Assembly (NCBI GenBank): GCA_964406145.1
Contig: CAYOQP010000001.1
Span: 7,706-71,705, forward strand
DNA: 64,000 nucleotides
Reading direction: 5' to 3'
Source: an uncultured Candidatus Saccharibacteria bacterium
GTDB taxonomy: Bacteria; Patescibacteriota; UBA1384; XYA2-FULL-43-10; 1-14-0-10-43-13
Shown here: positions 19,568-35,192 of the stretch, in pieces
How positions within the stretch are numbered: position 1 is the stretch's first letter
How the letters are laid out: every line of letters starts with the position of its first letter
Translations under genes and position numbers: made by a program
The notes under the pieces: model-generated
The model's database searches: none
Told to the model about the DNA's origin: nothing
What the model saw: only the letters and a program-made list of their open reading frames with translations

Positions 19568-20833
19568 TTAACTTTTGCTCTCCTCTAAAGTGATCTTGAC
19601 TTCCTTTTCCTTACCCTTGGAAAGAACTTTCAAGGTTATTTGTTCGCCAACTTGATGTTCCTGAACGAGCGATAATAGAGAATGATCCTGATCTATTTTT
19701 TCACCATCGATCTCTAGAATAATGTCATTCTCGACAATTCCGGCCTTATCAGCAGGAGATCCGGGCACAACGGCAAAATCCATTAAGCTATTGCCCCTCT
19801 GAACCAAAGCTCCATGATCGACAGAGAGATTGTTTTCTTTGGCAACAGACGGCGTTATTTCAAAGTACCTCACGCCTAAATATGGTCGAACTATTTTACC
19901 AGTTTTCTTAATGCTTTCGATCGCAGATTTAGCCGCATTAATCGGAATGGCAAACCCTATGCCCTGAGCGTTGCTAGCTACAGCCGTATTGATGCCGATA
20001 ACCTGACCAGCCAAATTGACCAGCGGACCGCCAGAATTACCTGAATTTATAGCCGTATCTGTCTGTAATAATCCGCTCAGACTCTCTGAACTACCGCCAC
20101 TAGCATCAGATGCTTCGATCTTTCTGTCTTTGGCTGAAATAACACCAGCCGTAACGGTATTTGAAAATTGTCCTAGGGCATTACCAATTGCAACAACCCA
20201 CTGGCCGATACTCAATTGATCGGAATCACCAAGTTCAACAACGGGAAGATTTCTAGCCTCAACTTTAATCACGGCCAGATCATTGACCGGATCAAGCGAT
20301 TTTACAGTAGCATCGTAGGTTGTACCGTCTAGCATGACAACGGTATAAGTCGCACTAGCATCACTAACAACGTGCTTATTTGTTAAAATTAATCCATCGC
20401 TTGTGATAACAAAACCGGTACCAGCACCTTCTGACTGATAAACCTGACCGAAAATATTCTGAACCGTTTTCTTTAGTTTAATAGAAACAACCGAGCTAGA
20501 AACTTTATTAACGGTGTCGATAATTGCGCTCGATTCCTGAACCACAACTTTTTGAGTCGAAACAGTCGGAATTGCTAAATCTTTAAAGTTGGGAATACCG
20601 AACTTTTTGGCAATATCACCATTTTTAGCTGAGAAAAGCAAAACTCCTCCGACTCCGCCAACTGCTCCGGCTACAAAAATAGCAATAATTAGAAAAAATA
20701 CTAAGACTGACTTTAAAAACTTATTTTTATTACCCTTAGATTCCTCCCGAAAATAAGGATCTTCATACTCAATTTTCGACATATTTCCTCTTATTTTTTG
20801 TTTAGTCCATCTTCTTTGAGACGGTATCTGCAA
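19568..20833 (-). CDS. HtrA/DegP-family serine protease with an N-terminal membrane anchor and a C-terminal PDZ
   Basis: 421 aa. Trypsin-like catalytic GNSGGPL, a PDZ domain, and an N-terminal TM. Confidence 0.85.
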   Translation of the reverse strand: MQIPSQRRWTKQKIRGNMSKIEYEDPYFREESKGNKNKFLKSVLVFFLIIAIFVAGAVGGVGGVLLFSAKNGDIAKKFGIPNFKDLAIPTVSTQKVVVQESSAIIDTVNKVSSSVVSIKLKKTVQNIFGQVYQSEGAGTGFVITSDGLILTNKHVVSDASATYTVVMLDGTTYDATVKSLDPVNDLAVIKVEARNLPVVELGDSDQLSIGQWVVAIGNALGQFSNTVTAGVISAKDRKIEASDASGGSSESLSGLLQTDTAINSGNSGGPLVNLAGQVIGINTAVASNAQGIGFAIPINAAKSAIESIKKTGKIVRPYLGVRYFEITPSVAKENNLSVDHGALVQRGNSLMDFAVVPGSPADKAGIVENDIILEIDGEKIDQDHSLLSLVQEHQVGEQITLKVLSKGKEKEVKITLEESKS

Positions 20834-21380: not shown

Positions 21381-21638
21381 TTATTTCTTGCCGTTATCTT
21401 CTTCGTCCTGAAGCATTTTACCCAATAGATATGTAACACCAACAGCGATAACCGTTACAACAAATGCATAAGTAACCTTGGAGGAAATGCCAGTACCATT
21501 TTCTGGCACAAGTCGAGCAATAATACTTTGGATTGCTTCATTCCAAGCAAGAGCAGCAACTAGACCAAAAGCGGCCGTTGCCAACTGAATCATTGTTTTT
21601 AGAAATTCTTTTTTAAGTCTACTGCCTTCTTTTTTCAT
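21381..21638 (-). CDS. Small membrane protein of unknown function
   Basis: 85 aa, two hydrophobic helices. Overlaps the gatB stop (ATGA). Confidence 0.4.
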   Translation of the reverse strand: MKKEGSRLKKEFLKTMIQLATAAFGLVAALAWNEAIQSIIARLVPENGTGISSKVTYAFVVTVIAVGVTYLLGKMLQDEEDNGKK

Positions 21639-23026
21639 AATTTTCCTTTCAATATTTTGGTGATTTCTTGCGGATTTACTTTACCCTTTGTTTCTTTCAT
21701 GATTTGACCCATGAAAAAACCAAGAAGCTGTGTTTCTCCGGCACGATAACGCTCAACTTCTTTGGGATTTGATCGCAATATCTTATCTATAGCTTCAACA
21801 AGCGATTCGCTAGATTCGACAGAACCAATGTCCATCCTAGCTTCGTCAAAACTCTTGCCATCGTGAATACTTTTAACAAGTAACCCGAATAAAGACTTTG
21901 GCATTTTTTCGTTTTCAGCTAGAGAGATTGCTTTGGCATATTCACCAGTTCTTGACCAATCATTTTCTGAAAAATCAAATGGGAAGTAATTATTTACAAT
22001 TGCTTTACCCAGAAAATTGTAGTGTTTTTTATCGACATCGATCACCAGCTTTTGCAAAATTGCATCCTTTGCATGATTGCTAACAAAAACCCTTGCGTCA
22101 GTTTCTGAAATACCAAGACATACTAATTCGTCAAATTTTTCTTCTGCCGTTTTACTAACTTCAGATTTTAATTTTTCGTGATCAAACTTAGTTGTATCAA
22201 ATGGCGGTAAATCTGGCTCTGGAAAATAACGATAATCAGCCGCCTCTTCCTTGGTGCGCTGAGGATATGTTGTATTGTTTTCAGAATTATAACCGCGAGT
22301 CACCTTTTTTAGCTTATCTGGCCAAGCTGGATATTCTTCTTTGAGCCTAGTCTCCTCAATGGTCAGGGCTTTTTCAAGAAATCTGAATGAATTAATATTT
22401 TTAAGTTCAACGATTTCTGACATTTTGTCTCCATCATTGACCGAGATGTTGCCATCACAACGCATGTGACCTTTTTCCATGTCAGCATCAGATACTTCAA
22501 CCACATCGCGGACAATTTTTTGCAATTTTCGCAAAAAATCTCCAGCCTGTTTGGGAGAGGTGATATCCGGCTCAGTCACTATCTCCATAAGTGGAGTCCC
22601 GGCTCTATTTAGATCAACTAAGCTTTTATCTCCCTTATGCGTTAATTTGCCGGCATCTTCTTCGAGATGAATTCTAGTTAAATTTATTTTCTGACCATCA
22701 ACTTCAACATAGCCACCAAGACAAAAAGGCTCATCATACTGAGAAATCTGATAACCCTTAGGAAGATCTGGATAGAAATAATGTTTACGATCAAACTTTG
22801 CAATCTTGGGTATGTCACAGTTGAGTGCTAAGCCAGTCTTAATTGTCCATTCAATTGCCTGATGATTGGCAATAGGCAAACTACCAGGAAAACCTAGACA
22901 AACCGGACAAACGACAGAATTCGGCGCCTTGCCTTGTGCATCATTATCACAAGAACAAAACATCTTGCTCTTAGTCTTAAGCTGAACGTGTATCTCTAAA
23001 CCAATTTTTGTATGCAATTCTGTCAT
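21635..23026 (-). CDS. gatB: Asp/Glu-tRNA(Asn/Gln) amidotransferase subunit B
   Basis: 463 aa. GatB N-terminal KIGLEIHVQL and a C-terminal YqeY-like domain. Confidence 0.95.
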   Translation of the reverse strand: MTELHTKIGLEIHVQLKTKSKMFCSCDNDAQGKAPNSVVCPVCLGFPGSLPIANHQAIEWTIKTGLALNCDIPKIAKFDRKHYFYPDLPKGYQISQYDEPFCLGGYVEVDGQKINLTRIHLEEDAGKLTHKGDKSLVDLNRAGTPLMEIVTEPDITSPKQAGDFLRKLQKIVRDVVEVSDADMEKGHMRCDGNISVNDGDKMSEIVELKNINSFRFLEKALTIEETRLKEEYPAWPDKLKKVTRGYNSENNTTYPQRTKEEAADYRYFPEPDLPPFDTTKFDHEKLKSEVSKTAEEKFDELVCLGISETDARVFVSNHAKDAILQKLVIDVDKKHYNFLGKAIVNNYFPFDFSENDWSRTGEYAKAISLAENEKMPKSLFGLLVKSIHDGKSFDEARMDIGSVESSESLVEAIDKILRSNPKEVERYRAGETQLLGFFMGQIMKETKGKVNPQEITKILKGKL

Positions 23027-23034
23027 ATTTTTTA

Positions 23035-23496
23035 TTACTCATTATCTTCTTCAAATATTGTGCCTAAAGTTTGTTGATCCCAGCGAATTTCTCCGTCAAT
23101 ACCATTTTTATAATGAAGTCTCTTATATAACGCTTCCATTTTCGGTAAGTAATCTCTCAGGAAAATAAGATCGGCCATTCTTCTTTCACTCCTATTATTT
23201 ATATCTCTATAGGCGTATCCATCCTCGGCTTTCAATCCAACTTCCACCATAGCTTCTCGCAGATCCAATGAAAGATCTTTCCACTTTTGAGCCATAACAC
23301 GGAATTCCTTGCTTTGTTCATCATCGCCTTCAAGCATATCTGGATCAGATTCTATCATTCTCATACCATAATGTTGATTTTCGAGCACTGAAGCCTTTAA
23401 ATTATTAAACGGCCTAAGACTGACCAATAGATTCTGAACTTCTGCCGCGATTTCCTCTTCACTCAATTGTTCGCCCGCATCTTCGGTCTCGCTCAT
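23035..23496 (-). CDS. Acidic hypothetical protein, possible partner of the upstream HEPN-like protein
   Basis: 153 aa, strongly acidic (many D/E). Overlaps the upstream ORF by 4 nt. Ends 8 nt before gatB. No recognisable domain. Confidence 0.45.
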   Translation of the reverse strand: MSETEDAGEQLSEEEIAAEVQNLLVSLRPFNNLKASVLENQHYGMRMIESDPDMLEGDDEQSKEFRVMAQKWKDLSLDLREAMVEVGLKAEDGYAYRDINNRSERRMADLIFLRDYLPKMEALYKRLHYKNGIDGEIRWDQQTLGTIFEEDNE

Positions 23497-23948
23497 AATG
23501 TTTTGGTGTAGCTTAATAGTTTTGTTGCTGCTGACTTAAGATCAGAATTCGATATCGCAATACCCTGCTCATGGGCAATCTGATTTCTAATCTTGTGACC
23601 CTGCCATATCTCATTATTAAGACTTTGGCTGAGATTTACCTGAGCTTTTTTCAATCTCTCCGCAAATGTCTGACCAGCATAACCCTGAATTTTCATCGTG
23701 TGATCGACTAGTTTATCAGCCTCGATAACTGCATTTTTAAGTTCAATCTGATTCTCGGTCGACAAGCTCTTTTCAATTTCTAGACGTCTTGAAGAGATAT
23801 AGTTTTTCTCCTCTATCGATAGATTATTATTTATTTTCCCAAATTTGAAACCCTTAAATGGTAAAGAAATGAGCCACCAAAGCATTCTACCAATGCCGAT
23901 AATTATTGTCTGGAAAATATCATTATCATATTTTTGTTTTTTGCTCAT
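23493..23948 (-). CDS. Membrane-anchored protein with a HEPN-like (HepT/DUF86-like) RNxxxH motif
   Basis: 151 aa. N-terminal TM (IFQTIIIGIGRMLWWLISLPF). An alpha-helical C-domain carries GHKIRNQIAHEQG (R121-N-x3-H126), matching the canonical HEPN R-N-x3-H-x-(Y/Q) motif. Confidence 0.45.
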   Translation of the reverse strand: MSKKQKYDNDIFQTIIIGIGRMLWWLISLPFKGFKFGKINNNLSIEEKNYISSRRLEIEKSLSTENQIELKNAVIEADKLVDHTMKIQGYAGQTFAERLKKAQVNLSQSLNNEIWQGHKIRNQIAHEQGIAISNSDLKSAATKLLSYTKTL

Positions 23949-23949
23949 A

Positions 23950-24693
23950 TTACTTTAACTCAACAGAGGTGATATTAACTGGATCTATTGGTTTGTCGCT
24001 TTCATCAACAGGAACTTCAGAAATTGCCACAGCTACATCGAGCCCCTTAATAACATGGCCAAAAACCGTGTGCTGTCCATCCAAATGCGGCTGAGCCTGC
24101 TCTGTCACAATGAAAAACTGGCTACCATTAGTGTTTGGGCCAGAATTAGCCATAGCCAGAGACCCAACATCCATTTTGTGAGAGGTCAGCTTGTAATTAT
24201 ATTTATAGCCCTGATCTTCAAGCTTTTTTATCTGATCGTCACTAAGGCCAAGACTTTTAGGATTGATTTCATCATCAAAAGTGTCACCAAATGAACTTTC
24301 ACCACCGGTGCCATCACCCTTTGGATCGCCCCCCTGAATCATAAAGCCCTTAATAACTCTGTGCCAGGCAAGATTATCGTAATAACCTTTTTCGGAAAGA
24401 GCCTTAAAATTCTCAACTGTCTTGGGCGCACTTTCTGGATAAAAAGCAATTTCAATGTCACCTTTAGAGGTATGAATGATGGCCATATTTCCTTCTGTTG
24501 TTATTAATGAATCTTTTTTTACAAACGGAAAGGCAATGAGAGCAACAAGACAGAGAGTATAAATCCAAAAATCTAATCTTCGCCAAAAATTCTCCCAAGG
24601 ATTTTTGAGACGCGAAATTTCTCTGAGAATTTCCTTCCGACTCTTCTCGGTCTCTTCTTTTTTTGTTCTCCTGATTTGTGCTTTCTTGCCCAT
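23950..24693 (-). CDS. Cyclophilin-type peptidyl-prolyl cis-trans isomerase with an N-terminal membrane anchor
   Basis: 247 aa. HRVIKGFMIQGGDP and NSGPNTNGSQFFI cyclophilin motifs. N-terminal TM. Confidence 0.9.
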   Translation of the reverse strand: MGKKAQIRRTKKEETEKSRKEILREISRLKNPWENFWRRLDFWIYTLCLVALIAFPFVKKDSLITTEGNMAIIHTSKGDIEIAFYPESAPKTVENFKALSEKGYYDNLAWHRVIKGFMIQGGDPKGDGTGGESSFGDTFDDEINPKSLGLSDDQIKKLEDQGYKYNYKLTSHKMDVGSLAMANSGPNTNGSQFFIVTEQAQPHLDGQHTVFGHVIKGLDVAVAISEVPVDESDKPIDPVNITSVELK

Positions 24694-24699
24694 ATTTCT

Positions 24700-25005
24700 T
24701 TAATTTAATCCGATAATAATACCGATCAACCAAAAAACAAAGATGATGCAGATCCAAACAGTTCCCAAAAATGAATAGAGGAACTTTTTTTGATCTGAGC
24801 GAAACAAGTAGTAATTAAATGCATAATTTATACATAAAGCGACTGGCCAAAATACAAAGAAGAAAAGATTTTCAGCAAAAGTTGTTTTAAACCAATCAGA
24901 ATCAAACCCATAAATTACAAAAAGAAAGAAGGCTATCGATTCAAGAAAAGTTAGAAGCAAGCCATTCCCCAAAGCTTTCAAAATTTTGCTAGTATTTTCG
25001 CTCAT
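24700..25005 (-). CDS. Hypothetical small membrane protein (3 TM)
   Basis: 101 aa hydrophobic ORF packed between the PPIase and the next membrane ORF. Confidence 0.4.
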   Translation of the reverse strand: MSENTSKILKALGNGLLLTFLESIAFFLFVIYGFDSDWFKTTFAENLFFFVFWPVALCINYAFNYYLFRSDQKKFLYSFLGTVWICIIFVFWLIGIIIGLN

Positions 25006-25074
25006 TAGTCTCCGTTTTATTTCAATATTAATTATAAATCAACATCATCTTGTTATTATTCTTTTATGGATTAG

Positions 25075-25386
25075 TTACCAATGCAAGAGAAGAGCCATCA
25101 TATTGATTACGATTATGATTAATAAAAGTATGTTTGCTGCAAGTATATGAGTCCATTTGCGCAAATCTTCTTTATGATTTTTTAAAGCTATCAAGGAGTT
25201 TACAGTAAAGATTACAATAAAAATAAAAATGGCAAATATTACGCCTTTAGCATTATCGTCAGAAAAAAGAAGAGAGAAAGGCGCCAAAAAACCCCATACC
25301 AAAATAGAGGTAACCGCTCCGATAACAAATGTTTTTGTATATTCTCTACTCATTATTCTCCGTTCTATTAAAAGAATATTTAACAA
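25075..25386 (-). CDS. Hypothetical small membrane protein (3 TM)
   Basis: 103 aa hydrophobic ORF. Ends 2 nt before the gatA start. Confidence 0.4.
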   Translation of the reverse strand: MLNILLIERRIMSREYTKTFVIGAVTSILVWGFLAPFSLLFSDDNAKGVIFAIFIFIVIFTVNSLIALKNHKEDLRKWTHILAANILLLIIIVINMMALLLHW

Positions 25387-25387
25387 A

Positions 25388-26896
25388 TTAATTGATTTCT
25401 GGCTTTTTCAAATGCCAATCTGTCACTTGCTGATATGCATAGCCGGCGTTTAATATCGCCTGCTCGCCCCACATCGATCCGATCAATTGTAGCCCTACTG
25501 GCAAATCTTTGCCCTCTTTTTTGATAAATCCAGCCGGAATACTGATTGCCGGCAAACCAGCGGGGTTAACCGGAACTGTCAGAATATCCGATAGATACAT
25601 TGCCAATGGATCATCTGTTTTTTCGCCAAATTTGAAAGCAGGAACAGGGGAGACCGGAGTTACCAAAAGGTCAACCTGCTTAAATATTTGCTCGAATTCT
25701 TTTTTAATTAAAGTTCTGACCTTCTGGGCCTTCTTGTAGTAAGCATCATAATATCCAGCCGAGAGAACATAACTGCCAAGCATTATTCTCCGCTTGGCCT
25801 CCGACCCAAATCCTTGAGCACGTGACTTAGAATAAACTTGCTCAAGACCTCTAGGATTAGAATCCTTATCTTTAAGTATACTATTGCCATAATGAATTCC
25901 ATCGTAACGAGCCAAATTGGAGCTGACTTCAGCCGGCATCAGAATATAGTATACTGCCAAAGCGTAATGGACCGACGGCAAAGAAACTTCGACTATTTCC
26001 GCCCCGTGTTCCCTATAAACATCAATTGAATTCCGAATAATTTTTTCAACCATTGGGTCCAGACCTTCAGCAAAAAACTCTTTCGGAACACCAATCTTAA
26101 GACCAGATAAATTATTTTTTAGATTCTTACCATAATCGGGGACTTCTTTTTCTGAGCTAGTAGCGTCATTATCATCGTGACCAGAGATATATTTAAGAAG
26201 TATGGCTGCGTCTTCGACGCTCTTTGTCATTGGTCCAGCCTGATCGAGAGATGAGGCCATCGCAATCGTGCCATAACGAGAAACTCGGCCATAAGTTGGT
26301 TTCAGCCCAGTAATAGAACAATGGCTAGCTGGCTGACGAATTGATCCACCAGTATCCGTGCCAATAGCAGCAATACAAAGATCTGCCGCTACCGCTGCTG
26401 CTGATCCGCCCGATGATCCACCCGGAATTCTCTCTAGGTCCCAAGGATTTCGTGTCGTTGAATCAAAATCTTTCGCCGTCGCATAAGCCGATGTCTCGGT
26501 TGATGAGCCCATCGCAAACTGATCCAGATTAGTCTTACCGATCAGAACCGCACCAGCTTCCCAGAGTTTGCGCGTGACCGTTGACTCATATTGTGGAATG
26601 AAATCGTCAAGAATTTTTGAAGCCGCTGTTGTCTTAATGCCTTTAGTCAGAAATAAGTCCTTAACAGCTATCGGAATACCATCAATCTCACTTAACAATT
26701 TGCCGCTTTTCCGACGCTCATCTGAAGCCCTAGCCATATCCAAAGCTTTATCTTCACATAAAGTAATATATGCACCGATTTTAGAATCAACTTGTTTTAT
26801 CCGTTCAAAAATACTTTCAGTTAGACCGACTGAAGTAATTTCACCATTTCCAAGCTTTAGAATAGACTCTTTAATTGTAAGATTATTGAGATTCAT
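25388..26896 (-). CDS. gatA: Glu-tRNA(Gln) amidotransferase subunit A
   Basis: 502 aa. Amidase signature GGSSGGSAAAVA and the Ser-cisSer-Lys region. Confidence 0.95.
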   Translation of the reverse strand: MNLNNLTIKESILKLGNGEITSVGLTESIFERIKQVDSKIGAYITLCEDKALDMARASDERRKSGKLLSEIDGIPIAVKDLFLTKGIKTTAASKILDDFIPQYESTVTRKLWEAGAVLIGKTNLDQFAMGSSTETSAYATAKDFDSTTRNPWDLERIPGGSSGGSAAAVAADLCIAAIGTDTGGSIRQPASHCSITGLKPTYGRVSRYGTIAMASSLDQAGPMTKSVEDAAILLKYISGHDDNDATSSEKEVPDYGKNLKNNLSGLKIGVPKEFFAEGLDPMVEKIIRNSIDVYREHGAEIVEVSLPSVHYALAVYYILMPAEVSSNLARYDGIHYGNSILKDKDSNPRGLEQVYSKSRAQGFGSEAKRRIMLGSYVLSAGYYDAYYKKAQKVRTLIKKEFEQIFKQVDLLVTPVSPVPAFKFGEKTDDPLAMYLSDILTVPVNPAGLPAISIPAGFIKKEGKDLPVGLQLIGSMWGEQAILNAGYAYQQVTDWHLKKPEIN

Positions 26897-27190
26897 TTAT
26901 TCAAATACTCCCGGCACAACGAAACTGCCATCTCTAAATTCTGGCGCATTCTTGGACATATCATCATGAGATATTTTAGATTCTTCAGCCTCATCAACCC
27001 TATCTACATTCGAAAGACCAGTGATATTGGCCGTTGGCTCAACACCATCGGTATTAACCTCACTAAGTTGGTCGACATAAGAGAGAACCGAAGAAAGCTG
27101 TCCAGCATAAAGATCTTCTTCATCAGCAGAAAGCTCAAGACGAGATAATTTGGCAATGTGTTTTACTTCTTCGATACTTAATTTCGACAT
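26897..27190 (-). CDS. gatC: Glu-tRNA(Gln) amidotransferase subunit C
   Basis: 97 aa. IAKLSRLELS GatC motif. Contiguous with gatA. Confidence 0.9.
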   Translation of the reverse strand: MSKLSIEEVKHIAKLSRLELSADEEDLYAGQLSSVLSYVDQLSEVNTDGVEPTANITGLSNVDRVDEAEESKISHDDMSKNAPEFRDGSFVVPGVFE

Positions 27191-28066: not shown

Positions 28067-30094
<2,028 letters not shown>

Positions 30095-30134
30095 TTACCG
30101 AGAACAACATGCCAATTCAATAGAAGGGAATCTC

Positions 30135-30162
30135 GAAAAAAGCCCCGACATAAAGTCGGGGC
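30135..30162 (-). terminator. Rho-independent terminator after the GC-elevated 304-aa gene
   Basis: On the minus strand: GCCCCGAC-TTTATG-TCGGGGC followed by TTTTTT. Confidence 0.65.
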
Positions 30163-33683: not shown

Positions 33684-35171
33684 GTGTTAAACACCCCCGC
33701 CGTTAATCTCGGCATCGTTGGCGTCAGCCGGGATTGCTTCCCGATCGAACTGACCCGGACCCGTCTCGGCCAGTTGGCCGAAGCCTGTGGCGACCATGCC
33801 ACCCCGTTCACCACGATCATCGAGAGCGAACGCGATGTCGCATCTGTCCTCAAAGAGGCGCATGATCTCGGCACCAACGCGATCGCGATCTATCTCGGCA
33901 ACTTCGGCCCCGAAGGCCCACTGTCCCTCCTCGCCGAAAAGTTCGGTGGCCCCGTCATGATCTGTGGCGCCGCCGAAGAGAGCATGCACACCCTGATCCA
34001 GGGTCGTGGCGATGCCTTCTGTGGCATGTTGAACGCGCACTACAATCTCGGACTGCGCCGGAAGCGCGTCCACACCCCGCAGAATCCCGTGGGCCTGCCT
34101 CACGAACTGGCGATTGAGATCGCCCACTTCATCAAGGTCGCCCGCGTCGCCCTCGGCATGAAAAGCCTCAAGGTCTTCGGATTCGGCCCGCGGCCCCAGG
34201 ACTTCCTGGCCTGCAACGCGCCGATTCAGCCGATCTACAACCTCGGCATCGAGATCATGGAGAACAGCGAGCTCGACCTCCTGAGGCTCTACAAAGCCGT
34301 CGATGAGAACGATCCTGAAATCGCAGTGATCGCCGAAGACATGGCTGCCGAACTGGGCCAGGGTAACACCTACCCCGACCTGTTGGCCAAGCTGGCCCGT
34401 TACGAACTGGCACTGTCCCGCTTCTTCGACGCCAACCTCGGCATGAGCAACTATGCCGTGATGGCCGACAAGTGCTGGCCGGCCTTCGAGGCCGAATTCG
34501 GCTTCGTCCCCTGCTACGTCAACAGCCGCTTCGCCAAGCGCGGCATTCCCATCGCTTGCGAAGTGGACGTCTACGGCGCGATCAGCGAGTATATGTGCCA
34601 GCTCGCGAGCCTCGCACCAGCGACCCTGCTGGACATCAACAACACCGCCCCGACCGATTTGTTGGCCAAGCTCGGCCGCAACTTCGATCCGGGCAACTTC
34701 TGGATGGGTTTCCATTGCGGCAATACCCCGTCCTGCCAGATGAAGAGCTGCGCTATGGCCTACCAGCTCATCATGAATCGTCTGATGGAAGGTGGCAACA
34801 CGCCCGACATCACCCGCGGTACCCTGGAAGGCCAGCTTCGCCCCGGCGCGGCAACGATCTTCCGCCTGCAAGGGACATCGGACAACTATCTGGCCAGCTA
34901 CATGGCGGAGGGCGAGATCGTCGATCTCGATCCCATGAGCTTCGGCGGCATCGGAGTCTTTGAGATTCCCGACTTCGCCCGCTTCTACCGCCACGTCCTT
35001 TTGAGTCTGCGTTTTCCGCATCACACCGCCGTGGCCTTCGACCACTGCGGCGAGGTGCTCTATGACGCGACGAAGATGCTCGGCCTCGCCAACATCTTCA
35101 CGCCGAACCCGGCGTCGATCCCCTACGAGCGCGAGAACCCGTTCTCCCTCGCCCGGATCAGCGGCAAGTAA
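33684..35171 (+). CDS. L-fucose/L-arabinose isomerase-family (COG2407-like) sugar isomerase, on GC-rich island 3
   Basis: 495 aa, about 62% GC, GTG start. N-terminal VNLGIVGVSRDCFP...AIYLGNFGPE pattern of FucI-like proteins. Central acidic metal-site candidates CEVDVYGA. Antisense frame fully open, a GC artefact. Confidence 0.5.
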   Translation: MLNTPAVNLGIVGVSRDCFPIELTRTRLGQLAEACGDHATPFTTIIESERDVASVLKEAHDLGTNAIAIYLGNFGPEGPLSLLAEKFGGPVMICGAAEESMHTLIQGRGDAFCGMLNAHYNLGLRRKRVHTPQNPVGLPHELAIEIAHFIKVARVALGMKSLKVFGFGPRPQDFLACNAPIQPIYNLGIEIMENSELDLLRLYKAVDENDPEIAVIAEDMAAELGQGNTYPDLLAKLARYELALSRFFDANLGMSNYAVMADKCWPAFEAEFGFVPCYVNSRFAKRGIPIACEVDVYGAISEYMCQLASLAPATLLDINNTAPTDLLAKLGRNFDPGNFWMGFHCGNTPSCQMKSCAMAYQLIMNRLMEGGNTPDITRGTLEGQLRPGAATIFRLQGTSDNYLASYMAEGEIVDLDPMSFGGIGVFEIPDFARFYRHVLLSLRFPHHTAVAFDHCGEVLYDATKMLGLANIFTPNPASIPYERENPFSLARISGK

Positions 35172-35192
35172 ACAACTTCGCCGACACAACAA

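What the first reader, a model, noticed from the sequence alone, without database searches (positions are those of the whole stretch)
23035..23948. Membrane-anchored HEPN-like (RNxxxH) protein plus acidic partner, embedded between gatB and the gatCA-PPIase block
The 151-aa protein has an N-terminal TM helix and a helical C-domain ending in GHKIRNQIAHEQG. This matches the HEPN/HepT R-N-x3-H catalytic motif of RNA-cleaving toxins and defence effectors. A strongly acidic 153-aa protein with no recognisable fold follows it with a 4-nt overlap. This could be a toxin-immunity or RNase-regulator pair. Unusually for such pairs, it sits inside a tightly packed housekeeping operon with essentially no intergenic gaps, rather than in a defence island. 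It splits the gat genes together with a cyclophilin and two small membrane proteins.
Basis: partly seen in the sequence, partly recalled or inferred. Interest (0 to 1): 0.5.

Follow-up and report, generated by a model that had tools for sequence, protein, structure and literature searches.

The report
Membrane HEPN protein inside gatCAB operon
The 151-aa protein belongs to a large uncharacterised family of membrane-anchored, HEPN-fold (RNase-like) proteins that almost always sit between gatA and gatB in Patescibacteria (CPR) genomes. It behaves as a vertically inherited housekeeping gene, not a toxin, and the acidic "partner" is a clade-specific insert rather than an antitoxin.

Summary
**Observation:** confirmed. 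Two minus-strand genes overlap by ATGA. One is a basic 151-aa protein with an N-terminal membrane segment and HKIRNQIAHE. The other is an acidic 153-aa helical protein.

**Toxin–immunity reading:** not supported.
- The family has about 4,800 clusters at 90% identity, all short single-domain proteins.
- In 80 species genomes chosen only by HEPN similarity, gatA lies upstream in 77 of 79 evaluable loci and gatB downstream in 71 of 79. In Saccharibacteria nothing lies between them.
- Its divergence tracks gatB (r = 0.91).
- No relatives occur in phage, plasmid or viral collections.
- The acidic protein exists only in a narrow Berkelbacteria-like clade and has no nucleotidyltransferase fold.

**Published data:** the probable Saccharibacteria orthologue, SEML1_0535, is listed as core, Patescibacteria-enriched and class II essential by Tn-seq, but the paper never discusses it.

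**Most likely function:** a cytoplasm-facing, membrane-tethered HEPN endoribonuclease or RNA-binding factor co-expressed with GatCAB. The substrate is unknown and activity is inferred, not shown.

The parts
23493..23948 (-). ORF A: 151-aa membrane-anchored HEPN-fold protein, member of a Patescibacteria-wide family
23856..23918 (-). N-terminal hydrophobic anchor, residues 11-31 (IFQTIIIGIGRMLWWLISLPF), with a conserved central K/R and an LWWLxxLPF motif
   Evidence: The AF2 model has a helix at 9-28. In 58 of 76 homologues this position holds a classical TM helix (mean KD 3.2) with a 4-aa N-tail and K/R only on the C-side.
23502..23816 (-). HEPN-fold helical domain, residues 45-149
23568..23597 (-). 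Predicted active-site motif H118-K-I-R121-N122-Q-I-A-H126-E127 (Rx4H with N after R)
   Evidence: H118, R121, N122 and H126 are invariant and K119 is 99% conserved in 76 sequences. The same holds in the 39-sequence alignment A4. The motif definition is from PMC3710099.
23703..23723 (-). Upstream conserved acidic motif E76-A-D78-K-L-V-D82
   Evidence: A77, D78 and D82 are invariant, and K79 is 86% conserved.
23035..23496 (-). ORF B: 153-aa acidic all-helical protein, a clade-specific insert between the HEPN gene and gatB
21635..23026 (-). gatB, 8 nt downstream of ORF B
   Evidence: The translation has the GatB_N/GatB_Yqey architecture in orthologous loci.
25388..26896 (-). gatA (amidase)
   Evidence: and the Pfam Amidase hit in orthologous loci.
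26897..27190 (-). gatC
23950..24693 (-). Cyclophilin PPIase with a basic N-tail and one TM helix, 1 nt upstream of ORF A. Present only in the Berkelbacteria-like subset.
   Evidence: Pro_isomerase E 3e-49. The PPIase lies between gatA and HEPN in L001-L012, L033, L036 and L039 only.
24700..25386 (-). Two small multi-TM ORFs (101 and 103 aa) between gatA and the cyclophilin
   Evidence: No Pfam family reaches threshold. They are not found in the other loci by tblastn.
30092..30162 (-). Terminator-like hairpin followed by a promoter-like site just upstream of ligA, the likely start of the transcription unit that contains the finding
   Evidence: consensus scans only.

Best explanation
ORF A is the local member of a large, previously uncharacterised family of small proteins: an N-terminal membrane anchor plus one HEPN domain. 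The family is specific to, or strongly enriched in, Patescibacteria (CPR). It is inherited vertically as part of the gatC-gatA-[HEPN]-gatB operon.

The HEPN domain faces the cytoplasm. It keeps the complete catalytic signature of metal-independent HEPN endoribonucleases: Rx4H, N after R, and upstream invariant acidic residues. The most likely mechanism is a membrane-tethered, probably dimeric, endoribonuclease (or at minimum an RNA-phosphate-binding module). It would be made in fixed proportion with GatCAB and act on a cellular RNA. A tRNA or an mRNA handled at the membrane is the best guess.

ORF B is not a conserved partner. It is a fast-evolving acidic helical protein inserted into a variable slot between the HEPN gene and gatB in one Berkelbacteria-like clade. 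At most it modulates the HEPN protein locally.

**Shown:** fold, motif conservation, family size, synteny, co-divergence, absence from mobile elements, predicted topology.

**Inferred:** RNase activity, dimerisation, substrate, and any physical link to GatCAB.

For: **Sequence.** The only Pfam families recurring across members are HEPN families: Swt1 in 11 of 43, RiboL-PSP in 8 of 43, Ymh with best E 3e-5, plus DUF4145, Apea and pEK499_p136.

**Motif.** R121, N122, H126, H118, D78 and D82 are invariant in 76 sequences. This matches the superfamily definition in PMC3710099.

**Housekeeping behaviour.**
- Among 80 species loci, gatA lies upstream in 77 of 79 evaluable and gatB downstream in 71 of 79. 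Both are directly adjacent in 56.
- The HEPN distance matrix correlates with gatB at r = 0.91 and with gatA at 0.875, against 0.93 for gatA versus gatB. Mantel p = 0.001.
- The gene is single-copy in the window and has the same composition as its neighbours.
- pN is far below pS.
- No homologues occur in 2.9 M viral contigs, 72,556 plasmids or 50,697 phages.

**Topology.** All 58 classical-TM members have a roughly 4-aa uncharged N-tail. They average 3.2 K/R after the helix against 0.07 before it.

**Independent data.** SEML1_0535 is a 139-aa protein between gatA and gatB in Southlakia epibionticum. It is flagged as a core family, Patescibacteria-enriched, with Tn-seq calls GD/GD/ES. Its DPAM fold is the nucleotidyltransferase substrate-binding (HEPN) group, residues 26-135 (PMC10633639 Tables S1 and S2).
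Against: - No member reaches the gathering threshold of any Pfam HEPN family.
- A PDB sequence-profile search finds no HEPN protein.
- Foldseek E-values are all above 0.1. Helical bundles give moderate structural matches easily.
- RNase activity has not been tested. No bacterial HEPN protein is known, to my knowledge, as an essential housekeeping RNase. A constitutive HEPN RNase would need restraint, and none is evident.
- The extra invariant residues (H118, K119, W115, D82, R98) are not part of the canonical site and could indicate a different chemistry or ligand.
- The typical Ex3[KR] spacing is not reproduced.
- Operon membership does not prove functional coupling. The Tn-seq depletion of SEML1_0535 could be a polar effect on gatB.
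- I inferred orthology of SEML1_0535 from size, position and fold, not from its sequence.
Confidence: 0.6

Rival explanations
1. The protein is a non-catalytic accessory subunit of the tRNA-dependent amidotransferase. The HEPN domain would bind tRNA, a nucleotide or GatA/GatB, and tether GatCAB (the transamidosome) to the membrane. The conserved R/N/H would serve phosphate binding rather than cleavage.
Against: According to PMC3710099, HEPN domains used as binding modules have typically lost Rx4-6H. Here it is invariant, together with the polar N. In Paceibacterota, Uhrbacteria, Kaiserbacteria and Minisyncoccota loci gatB is not downstream. In Dojkabacteria no gat gene is nearby. No fusion to a Gat subunit appears among 3,025 representatives, all of 80-215 aa. 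No interaction test was possible.
Confidence: 0.2
2. This is the first reader's model: ORF A is a HEPN RNase toxin or defence effector and ORF B is its immunity or antitoxin protein, a selfish or defensive pair lodged in a housekeeping operon.
For: A basic HEPN protein (pI 9.6) is followed by an acidic small protein (pI 4.5) with an ATGA overlap. Most prokaryotic HEPN proteins are toxins or defence effectors (PMC3710099). Other ORFs found in the same slot are also acidic.
Against: ORF B occurs in only a narrow clade. The HEPN gene occurs alone in at least 56 of 80 species loci. ORF B has no MNT or nucleotidyltransferase fold. PADLOC and NCBIfam give nothing. The gene is inherited vertically with gatA and gatB. 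There are no phage, plasmid or viral relatives. The probable orthologue is needed for fitness rather than dispensable.
Confidence: 0.05
3. The protein is an Ire1-like envelope or membrane-stress sensor. The membrane anchor would sense bilayer or secretion stress and switch the cytoplasmic HEPN RNase on, functionally linked to the neighbouring extracytoplasmic cyclophilin, HtrA, YtxH and MscS genes rather than to GatCAB.
For: The window operon and its Berkelbacteria-like relatives carry a TM-cyclophilin immediately upstream, with DUF5654 or MscS, YtxH and HtrA downstream. PMC3710099 section 15 predicts stimulus-dependent RNA degradation for other TM-HEPN proteins. The window clade has a conserved, unusual anchor with a polar stripe.
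Against: In Saccharibacteria, the bulk of the family, the external part is about 4 residues. The cyclophilin is absent and the only constant neighbours are gatA and gatB.
Confidence: 0.1

Closest known systems
HepT/HEPN toxins of HEPN-MNT toxin-antitoxin systems (e.g. Shewanella SO_3166, PDB 5yep; Aphanizomenon HEPN, 7ae2/8xdj)
   Different: There is no adjacent MNT nucleotidyltransferase, and ORF B is an unrelated helical bundle. This protein has a membrane anchor. It is vertically inherited, operon-fixed and fitness-relevant instead of mobile and dispensable. Sequence similarity is undetectable by HMM.
Membrane-associated bacterial HEPN proteins predicted by Anantharaman et al. 2013 (DUF4145 group with a 'WP' TM helix; Abi2/Swt1-group TM-HEPN)
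   Same: The architecture matches: a single TM helix plus a predicted cytoplasmic, catalytically intact HEPN domain. The proposed role is RNA processing on the inner face of the membrane (PMC3710099 section 15). ProtNLM and UniRef name some members 'DUF4145 domain-containing'.
   Different: The Pfam DUF4145 HMM does not recognise the family: 1 of 43 members at E 0.016 and none of 16 further members. There is no strictly conserved WP. The phyletic range is restricted to CPR. The family is embedded in gatCAB rather than in R-M or defence contexts.
SEML1_0535 of Southlakia epibionticum (Wang et al. 2023, Cell; supplementary tables only)
   Same: It is a 139-aa hypothetical protein overlapping gatA and gatB, matching the Saccharibacterial members found here in size and position. 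It has an HEPN-type ECOD fold. It is flagged core, Patescibacteria-enriched and class II essential.
   Different: It is never discussed in that paper, which has 0 occurrences each of 'HEPN', 'RNase' and 'tRNA'. It has a classical TM helix and no ORF B or cyclophilin neighbours.
Ire1/RNase L KEN domains and C6orf70 (eukaryotic membrane-anchored HEPN RNases); RNase Y and RNase E (bacterial membrane-tethered RNases)
   Same: The working analogy is an endoribonuclease held at the cytoplasmic face of a membrane. Ire1 and C6orf70 use an HEPN-type active site.
   Different: There is no kinase or sensor domain and no sequence relationship. RNase Y and RNase E have unrelated folds. This is a comparison of mode of action only.

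Membership tests
HEPN superfamily (Pfam clan CL0291; Anantharaman et al. 2013) | All-alpha up-down helical bundle fold shared with solved HEPN domains | tested here: met
HEPN superfamily | Conserved Rx4-6H motif | tested here: met
   R121-x4-H126 is invariant in 76, 43 and 39 sequences.
HEPN superfamily | Polar residue (N, D or H) immediately after the conserved R | tested here: met
   N122 is invariant. Definition.
HEPN superfamily | Second conserved acidic residue upstream, typically in an Ex3[KR] motif | tested here: inconclusive
   D78 and D82 are invariant and K79 is 86% conserved in the first long helix. The spacing is (E)ADKLxD, not Ex3[KR], and E76 is not invariant in the wide alignment.
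HEPN superfamily | Metal-independent endoribonuclease activity leaving a 2',3'-cyclic phosphate | not testable with these tools
   This needs biochemistry.
Any curated HEPN family model (Pfam HEPN_Swt1, RiboL-PSP, Hypoth_Ymh, DUF4145, DUF86, etc.) | Score at or above the family's gathering threshold | tested here: not met
   The window protein's best hit is HEPN_Swt1 at 15.1 bits against a 27.5 cutoff. No member passes any model. NCBIfam gives nothing.
HEPN-MNT (HepT-MntA) type II/VII toxin-antitoxin system | Adjacent minimal nucleotidyltransferase (MNT) antitoxin gene | tested here: not met
HEPN-MNT / toxin-antitoxin or defence modules in general | Conserved two-gene unit; patchy, mobile distribution, often on plasmids, phages or islands | tested here: not met
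   The partner is confined to a narrow clade. The gene co-diverges with gatA and gatB, r 0.88-0.91. No hits in viral, plasmid or phage collections. PADLOC shows only a spurious Cas1 hit at E 0.007.
DUF4145-type TM-HEPN of Anantharaman 2013 | [quoted passage not shown] | tested here: not met
   The window clade has LWWLxxLPF (W and P not adjacent). Only L013 has WPF. The Saccharibacterial majority has plain hydrophobic helices without W or P. Homology of the anchors could not be tested because no reference sequence was available.

The most novel reading that the evidence does not exclude
The TM-HEPN protein is a fourth, Patescibacteria-specific component of the tRNA-dependent Asn/Gln pathway, and the first essential housekeeping HEPN enzyme in bacteria. 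One version is a membrane-tethered RNase that acts on tRNA(Gln)/tRNA(Asn), for example culling mischarged Glu-tRNA(Gln) or Asp-tRNA(Asn) that escapes GatCAB. Another is a subunit that localises the transamidosome to the membrane. The fact that in Dojkabacteria the gene instead follows another glutamine-hydrolysing enzyme (a class I GATase) would then reflect a link to the glutaminase step.
Probability: 0.2. Interest if true: 0.8.

Novelty: new variant of a known kind. Interest (0 to 1): 0.55.

Why it matters
Prokaryotic HEPN proteins are known almost exclusively as toxins and defence effectors. This family is instead vertically inherited, apparently phylum-wide, and fixed inside one of the most conserved translation-related operons of the CPR. 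That group makes up a large share of bacterial diversity, and most of its essential lineage-specific genes have no assigned function.

The probable orthologue in the one genetically tractable Saccharibacterium is already scored as essential, but nobody has commented on it. The family has invariant candidate catalytic residues and occurs in a transformable organism. That makes a concrete question testable: what does a membrane-bound HEPN RNase-like protein do next to GatCAB in cells that depend entirely on the indirect Asn/Gln-tRNA pathway?

Tried and rejected
1. **Single-sequence family searches.** Pfam, NCBIfam and PADLOC gave only sub-threshold or spurious hits.
2. **PDB sequence-profile search.** It returned only chance matches, MCM8 and ribosomal protein S20.
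3. **AFDB50 Foldseek.** The library was not available.
4. **ORF B as an MNT antitoxin.** Rejected by fold.
6. **Other ORFs in the HEPN-gatB slot as divergent ORF B homologues.** L012 and L005 are homologues. L003 and L018 are not detectable. L013 is RhuM/Fic and L045 is NUDIX.
7. **DUF4145 membership, suggested by ProtNLM and UniRef names.** The Pfam HMM does not reproduce it.
8. **Mobile-element origin.** No relatives occur in viral contigs, plasmids or phages.
9. **RNA genes or riboswitches in the window.** None were found.
10. **Literature link between HEPN or DUF4145 and GatCAB, Saccharibacteria or Patescibacteria.** None was found in full-text searches.
11. **First attempt to fold ORF B.** It was repeated with alignment A3.

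Full report
**1. What is in the sequence**

The two ORFs exist exactly as described, on the minus strand. ORF A is 23493..23948 (151 aa). ORF B is 23035..23496 (153 aa). They overlap by ATGA.

ORF A is basic (pI 9.6). It carries one hydrophobic N-terminal segment at residues 11-31 and a single Rx4H match, R121-NQIA-H126. ORF B is acidic, with 35 D/E against 19 K/R and pI 4.5.

The surrounding minus-strand genes are ligA, a PHP phosphoesterase, gatC, gatA, two small multi-TM ORFs, a TM-anchored cyclophilin, ORF A, ORF B, gatB and DUF5654. These are followed by a 92-aa ORF, YtxH and HtrA. Gaps run from -4 to 69 nt.

A terminator-like hairpin and a promoter-like site sit just upstream of ligA, and no convincing terminator lies inside the block. 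ORF A and ORF B have the same GC and GC3 as their neighbours, and the window holds only one copy of the family.

**2. ORF A is an HEPN-fold protein**

The window protein alone gives only a sub-threshold HEPN_Swt1 hit in Pfam (E 0.029) and nothing in NCBIfam or PADLOC. Across 43 homologues, however, the families that recur are HEPN families:
- Swt1-like in 11 of 43.
- RiboL-PSP in 8 of 43.
- Hypoth_Ymh, best E 3e-5.
- DUF4145, Apea and pEK499_p136.

None reaches a gathering threshold.

The sequence signature is the strongest evidence. In 76 non-identical homologues sharing only 25-55% identity with the window protein, nine residues are 100% conserved: A77, D78, D82, G92, W115, H118, R121, N122 and H126. 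K119 is 99% conserved and R98 is 96%.

This fits the definition in Anantharaman et al. 2013: Rx4-6H, a polar residue (N, D or H) right after R, and an upstream conserved acidic residue (PMC3710099). The usual Ex3[KR] spacing is not reproduced.

**3. It is a very large, CPR-wide family fixed between gatA and gatB**

A single-sequence search found 67 relatives. A profile of diverse members found 4,846 clusters at 90% identity. An exhaustive HMM scan of 1.84 billion representatives found 3,025 clusters at 50% identity, and those listed are all 80-215 aa, single-domain proteins.

A scan of one genome per GTDB species returned more than 561 confirmed loci. The 80 best come from Saccharibacteria, Berkelbacteria, Paceibacterota, Uhrbacteria, Kaiserbacteria, Dojkabacteria, Minisyncoccota and unclassified Patescibacteria. 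These loci were chosen by HEPN similarity alone.

| Context across the 80 species loci | Count |
|---|---|
| gatA upstream on the same strand | 77 of 79 evaluable |
| gatB downstream | 71 of 79 evaluable |
| Both present | 70 |
| Both within 200 nt | 56 |

In Saccharibacteria the protein is 138-140 aa. Its gaps to gatA and gatB are about -4 to +60 nt, with nothing in between.

There are two kinds of exception:
- In Paceibacterota, Uhrbacteria, Kaiserbacteria and Minisyncoccota the order is ligA-gatC-gatA-HEPN, with gatB elsewhere.
- In two Dojkabacteria the gene follows a class I glutamine amidotransferase with a 4-nt overlap.

**4. It behaves as a housekeeping gene, not a mobile toxin**
- Pairwise distances of the HEPN proteins correlate with those of GatB (r 0.91) and GatA (r 0.875) from the same loci. 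That is nearly as good as GatA against GatB (0.93). Mantel p is 0.001 over 62 loci. The mean p-distance is 0.55, against 0.44 for GatA and 0.48 for GatB.
- Against an 84%-identical relative (L088), pN is 0.084 and pS is 0.66.
- No relative exists in 2.9 million viral contigs, 72,556 plasmids or 50,697 phage genomes.

**5. Topology**

Of the 76 family members, 58 have a classical TM helix with mean Kyte-Doolittle hydropathy of 3.2. It is preceded by about 4 uncharged or acidic residues and followed by an average of 3.2 K/R, against 0.07 before the helix. All 58 have more K/R after the helix than before it. By the positive-inside rule this places the N-terminus outside and the HEPN domain in the cytoplasm.

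The window's clade (18 of 76) differs. It has a K-rich N-tail and a less hydrophobic segment with a conserved central K/R and an LWWLxxLPF motif. Polar residues recur at positions 13/14, 21 and 28, which fall on one face of the helix. That suggests an oligomerising or interfacial anchor. Here too, K/R after the segment outnumber those before it in 14 of the 18.

**6. ORF B is a real gene but not a conserved partner**

ORF B is under purifying selection (pN 0.168, pS 0.72). It evolves about twice as fast as ORF A.

Only 9 clusters in 5.8 billion proteins resemble it. Iterative searching adds the slot ORFs of L005/L007 and L012, and L010 appears to carry a split copy.

The slot between the HEPN gene and gatB is variable:
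- Empty in most genomes.
- Unrelated small acidic ORFs in L003, L018 and L028.
- A RhuM/Fic gene in L013 and a double-NUDIX gene in L045.

The cyclophilin and the two small membrane ORFs are likewise clade-specific inserts between gatA and the HEPN gene.

**7. What is already on record**

Anantharaman et al. 2013 predicted three groups of bacterial TM-anchored HEPN proteins acting on RNA at the inner face of the membrane. None of them is linked to gatCAB.

In Wang et al. 2023 (PMC10633639), Table S1 lists SEML1_0535. It is a 420-nt hypothetical gene overlapping gatA (SEML1_0536) and gatB (SEML1_0534). It is marked core family = 1 and Patescibacteria-enriched = 1, with Tn-seq calls GD/GD/ES. 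Normalised reads fall from 127 to 5.9 to 2.8, which makes it class II essential.

Table S2 gives ProtNLM 'DUF4145 domain-containing protein' (score 0.98) and a DPAM assignment to the nucleotidyltransferase substrate-binding (HEPN) fold for residues 26-135. The main text never mentions it. One UniRef entry carries the same DUF4145 name, but the Pfam DUF4145 HMM does not hit the family.

Two caveats apply. I inferred orthology from size, position and fold, not from sequence. Polarity on gatB could explain the Tn-seq depletion. Full-text searches found no paper linking HEPN or DUF4145 with GatCAB or CPR.

**8. Mechanism**

The best-supported reading (confidence about 0.6) is a cytoplasm-facing, membrane-tethered HEPN endoribonuclease. 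It would probably act as a dimer, as other HEPN RNases do, with the anchor helping dimerisation. It would be co-expressed stoichiometrically with GatCAB and act on a cellular RNA.

- **Shown:** fold, invariant catalytic-type residues, topology prediction, synteny, co-divergence and lack of mobility.
- **Inferred:** RNase activity, dimerisation and substrate.

| Rival reading | Confidence | Main point |
|---|---|---|
| Non-catalytic tRNA-binding or GatCAB-tethering subunit | about 0.2 | Disfavoured because binding-type HEPN domains usually lose Rx4H |
| Ire1-like membrane or secretion-stress RNase tied to the cyclophilin and HtrA neighbours | about 0.1 | Disfavoured because those neighbours are absent in most lineages |

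**9. Verdict**

The toxin-immunity interpretation is not.

What is there is a new, unnamed HEPN family with an unusual biology for this superfamily. It is housekeeping-like, phylum-wide, membrane-anchored and intercalated in gatCAB. It is a new variant of a known kind, partly visible in published supplementary tables but never analysed. Interest is moderate to high (0.55), because it makes a concrete and tractable question about CPR translation biology testable.

Noticed in passing
L067:4312-4872 and L081:4300-4860 (Dojkabacteria): In these loci the TM-HEPN gene is not near any gat gene. It directly follows, with a 4-nt overlap, a 186-aa class I glutamine amidotransferase (PF00117, E 2e-28). 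In both contexts the upstream gene is therefore a glutamine-hydrolysing enzyme. This may be coincidence.
   Followed up: partly
window 23856-23918 (ORF A residues 11-31) and homologues L001-L018, L028, L046: About a quarter of the family (18 of 76) has an atypical anchor in place of a plain TM helix. It has a K-rich N-tail, a conserved central K/R, an LWWLxxLPF motif, and polar residues at positions 13/14, 21 and 28 on one helical face. This could be an oligomerising or interfacial helix.
   Followed up: partly
L003:6466-7002, L018:5434-5766, L028:5532-5744, L012:5404-5853, L005:6459-6878: Every small ORF found in the HEPN-gatB slot is acidic (pI 4.5-5.2), although only some are detectably homologous to ORF B. 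Either one partner is diverging very fast or this is just ordinary cytoplasmic acidity.
   Followed up: partly
L013:5558-6565 and L045:5318-6433: The same slot holds a RhuM/Fic-domain gene in one Saccharibacteria-labelled MAG and a double-NUDIX gene in another Patescibacteria MAG. The HEPN-gatB junction therefore seems to tolerate insertions.
   Followed up: no
L010:5399-5814: The ORF B homologue appears split into two short ORFs (69 and 63 aa) that carry the KYNNL and FLxDF motifs. This is either a frameshift or assembly error, or a decaying gene.
   Followed up: no
window 23950-24693 (-): The cyclophilin has a highly basic 40-aa N-tail followed by one TM helix. Its PPIase domain is therefore predicted to be extracytoplasmic, a membrane-anchored foldase. 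It occurs between gatA and the HEPN gene only in the Berkelbacteria-like subset.
   Followed up: partly
window 33684-35171 (+): A gene with an L-fucose isomerase C-terminal domain (E 6e-20) lies in a 54% GC stretch, against about 39% for the rest of the window. A long antisense ORF (33687-35192) is produced by the high GC. This is probably a horizontally acquired gene.
   Followed up: partly
window 19568-20833 (-): The longest htrA ORF starts at a TTG that overlaps ytxH by 32 nt. The orthologue in L088 is called at 404 aa rather than 421, so the true start is probably downstream.
   Followed up: no
P0288 / UniRef100_A0A1F5DM79 and SEML1_0535: Public machine-generated names call family members 'DUF4145 domain-containing protein', but the Pfam DUF4145 model does not match them here. 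The name points to the right superfamily but not to a verified family membership.
   Followed up: yes
window 1-64000: No tRNA, rRNA or any Rfam family reaches threshold anywhere in the 64 kb.
   Followed up: yes
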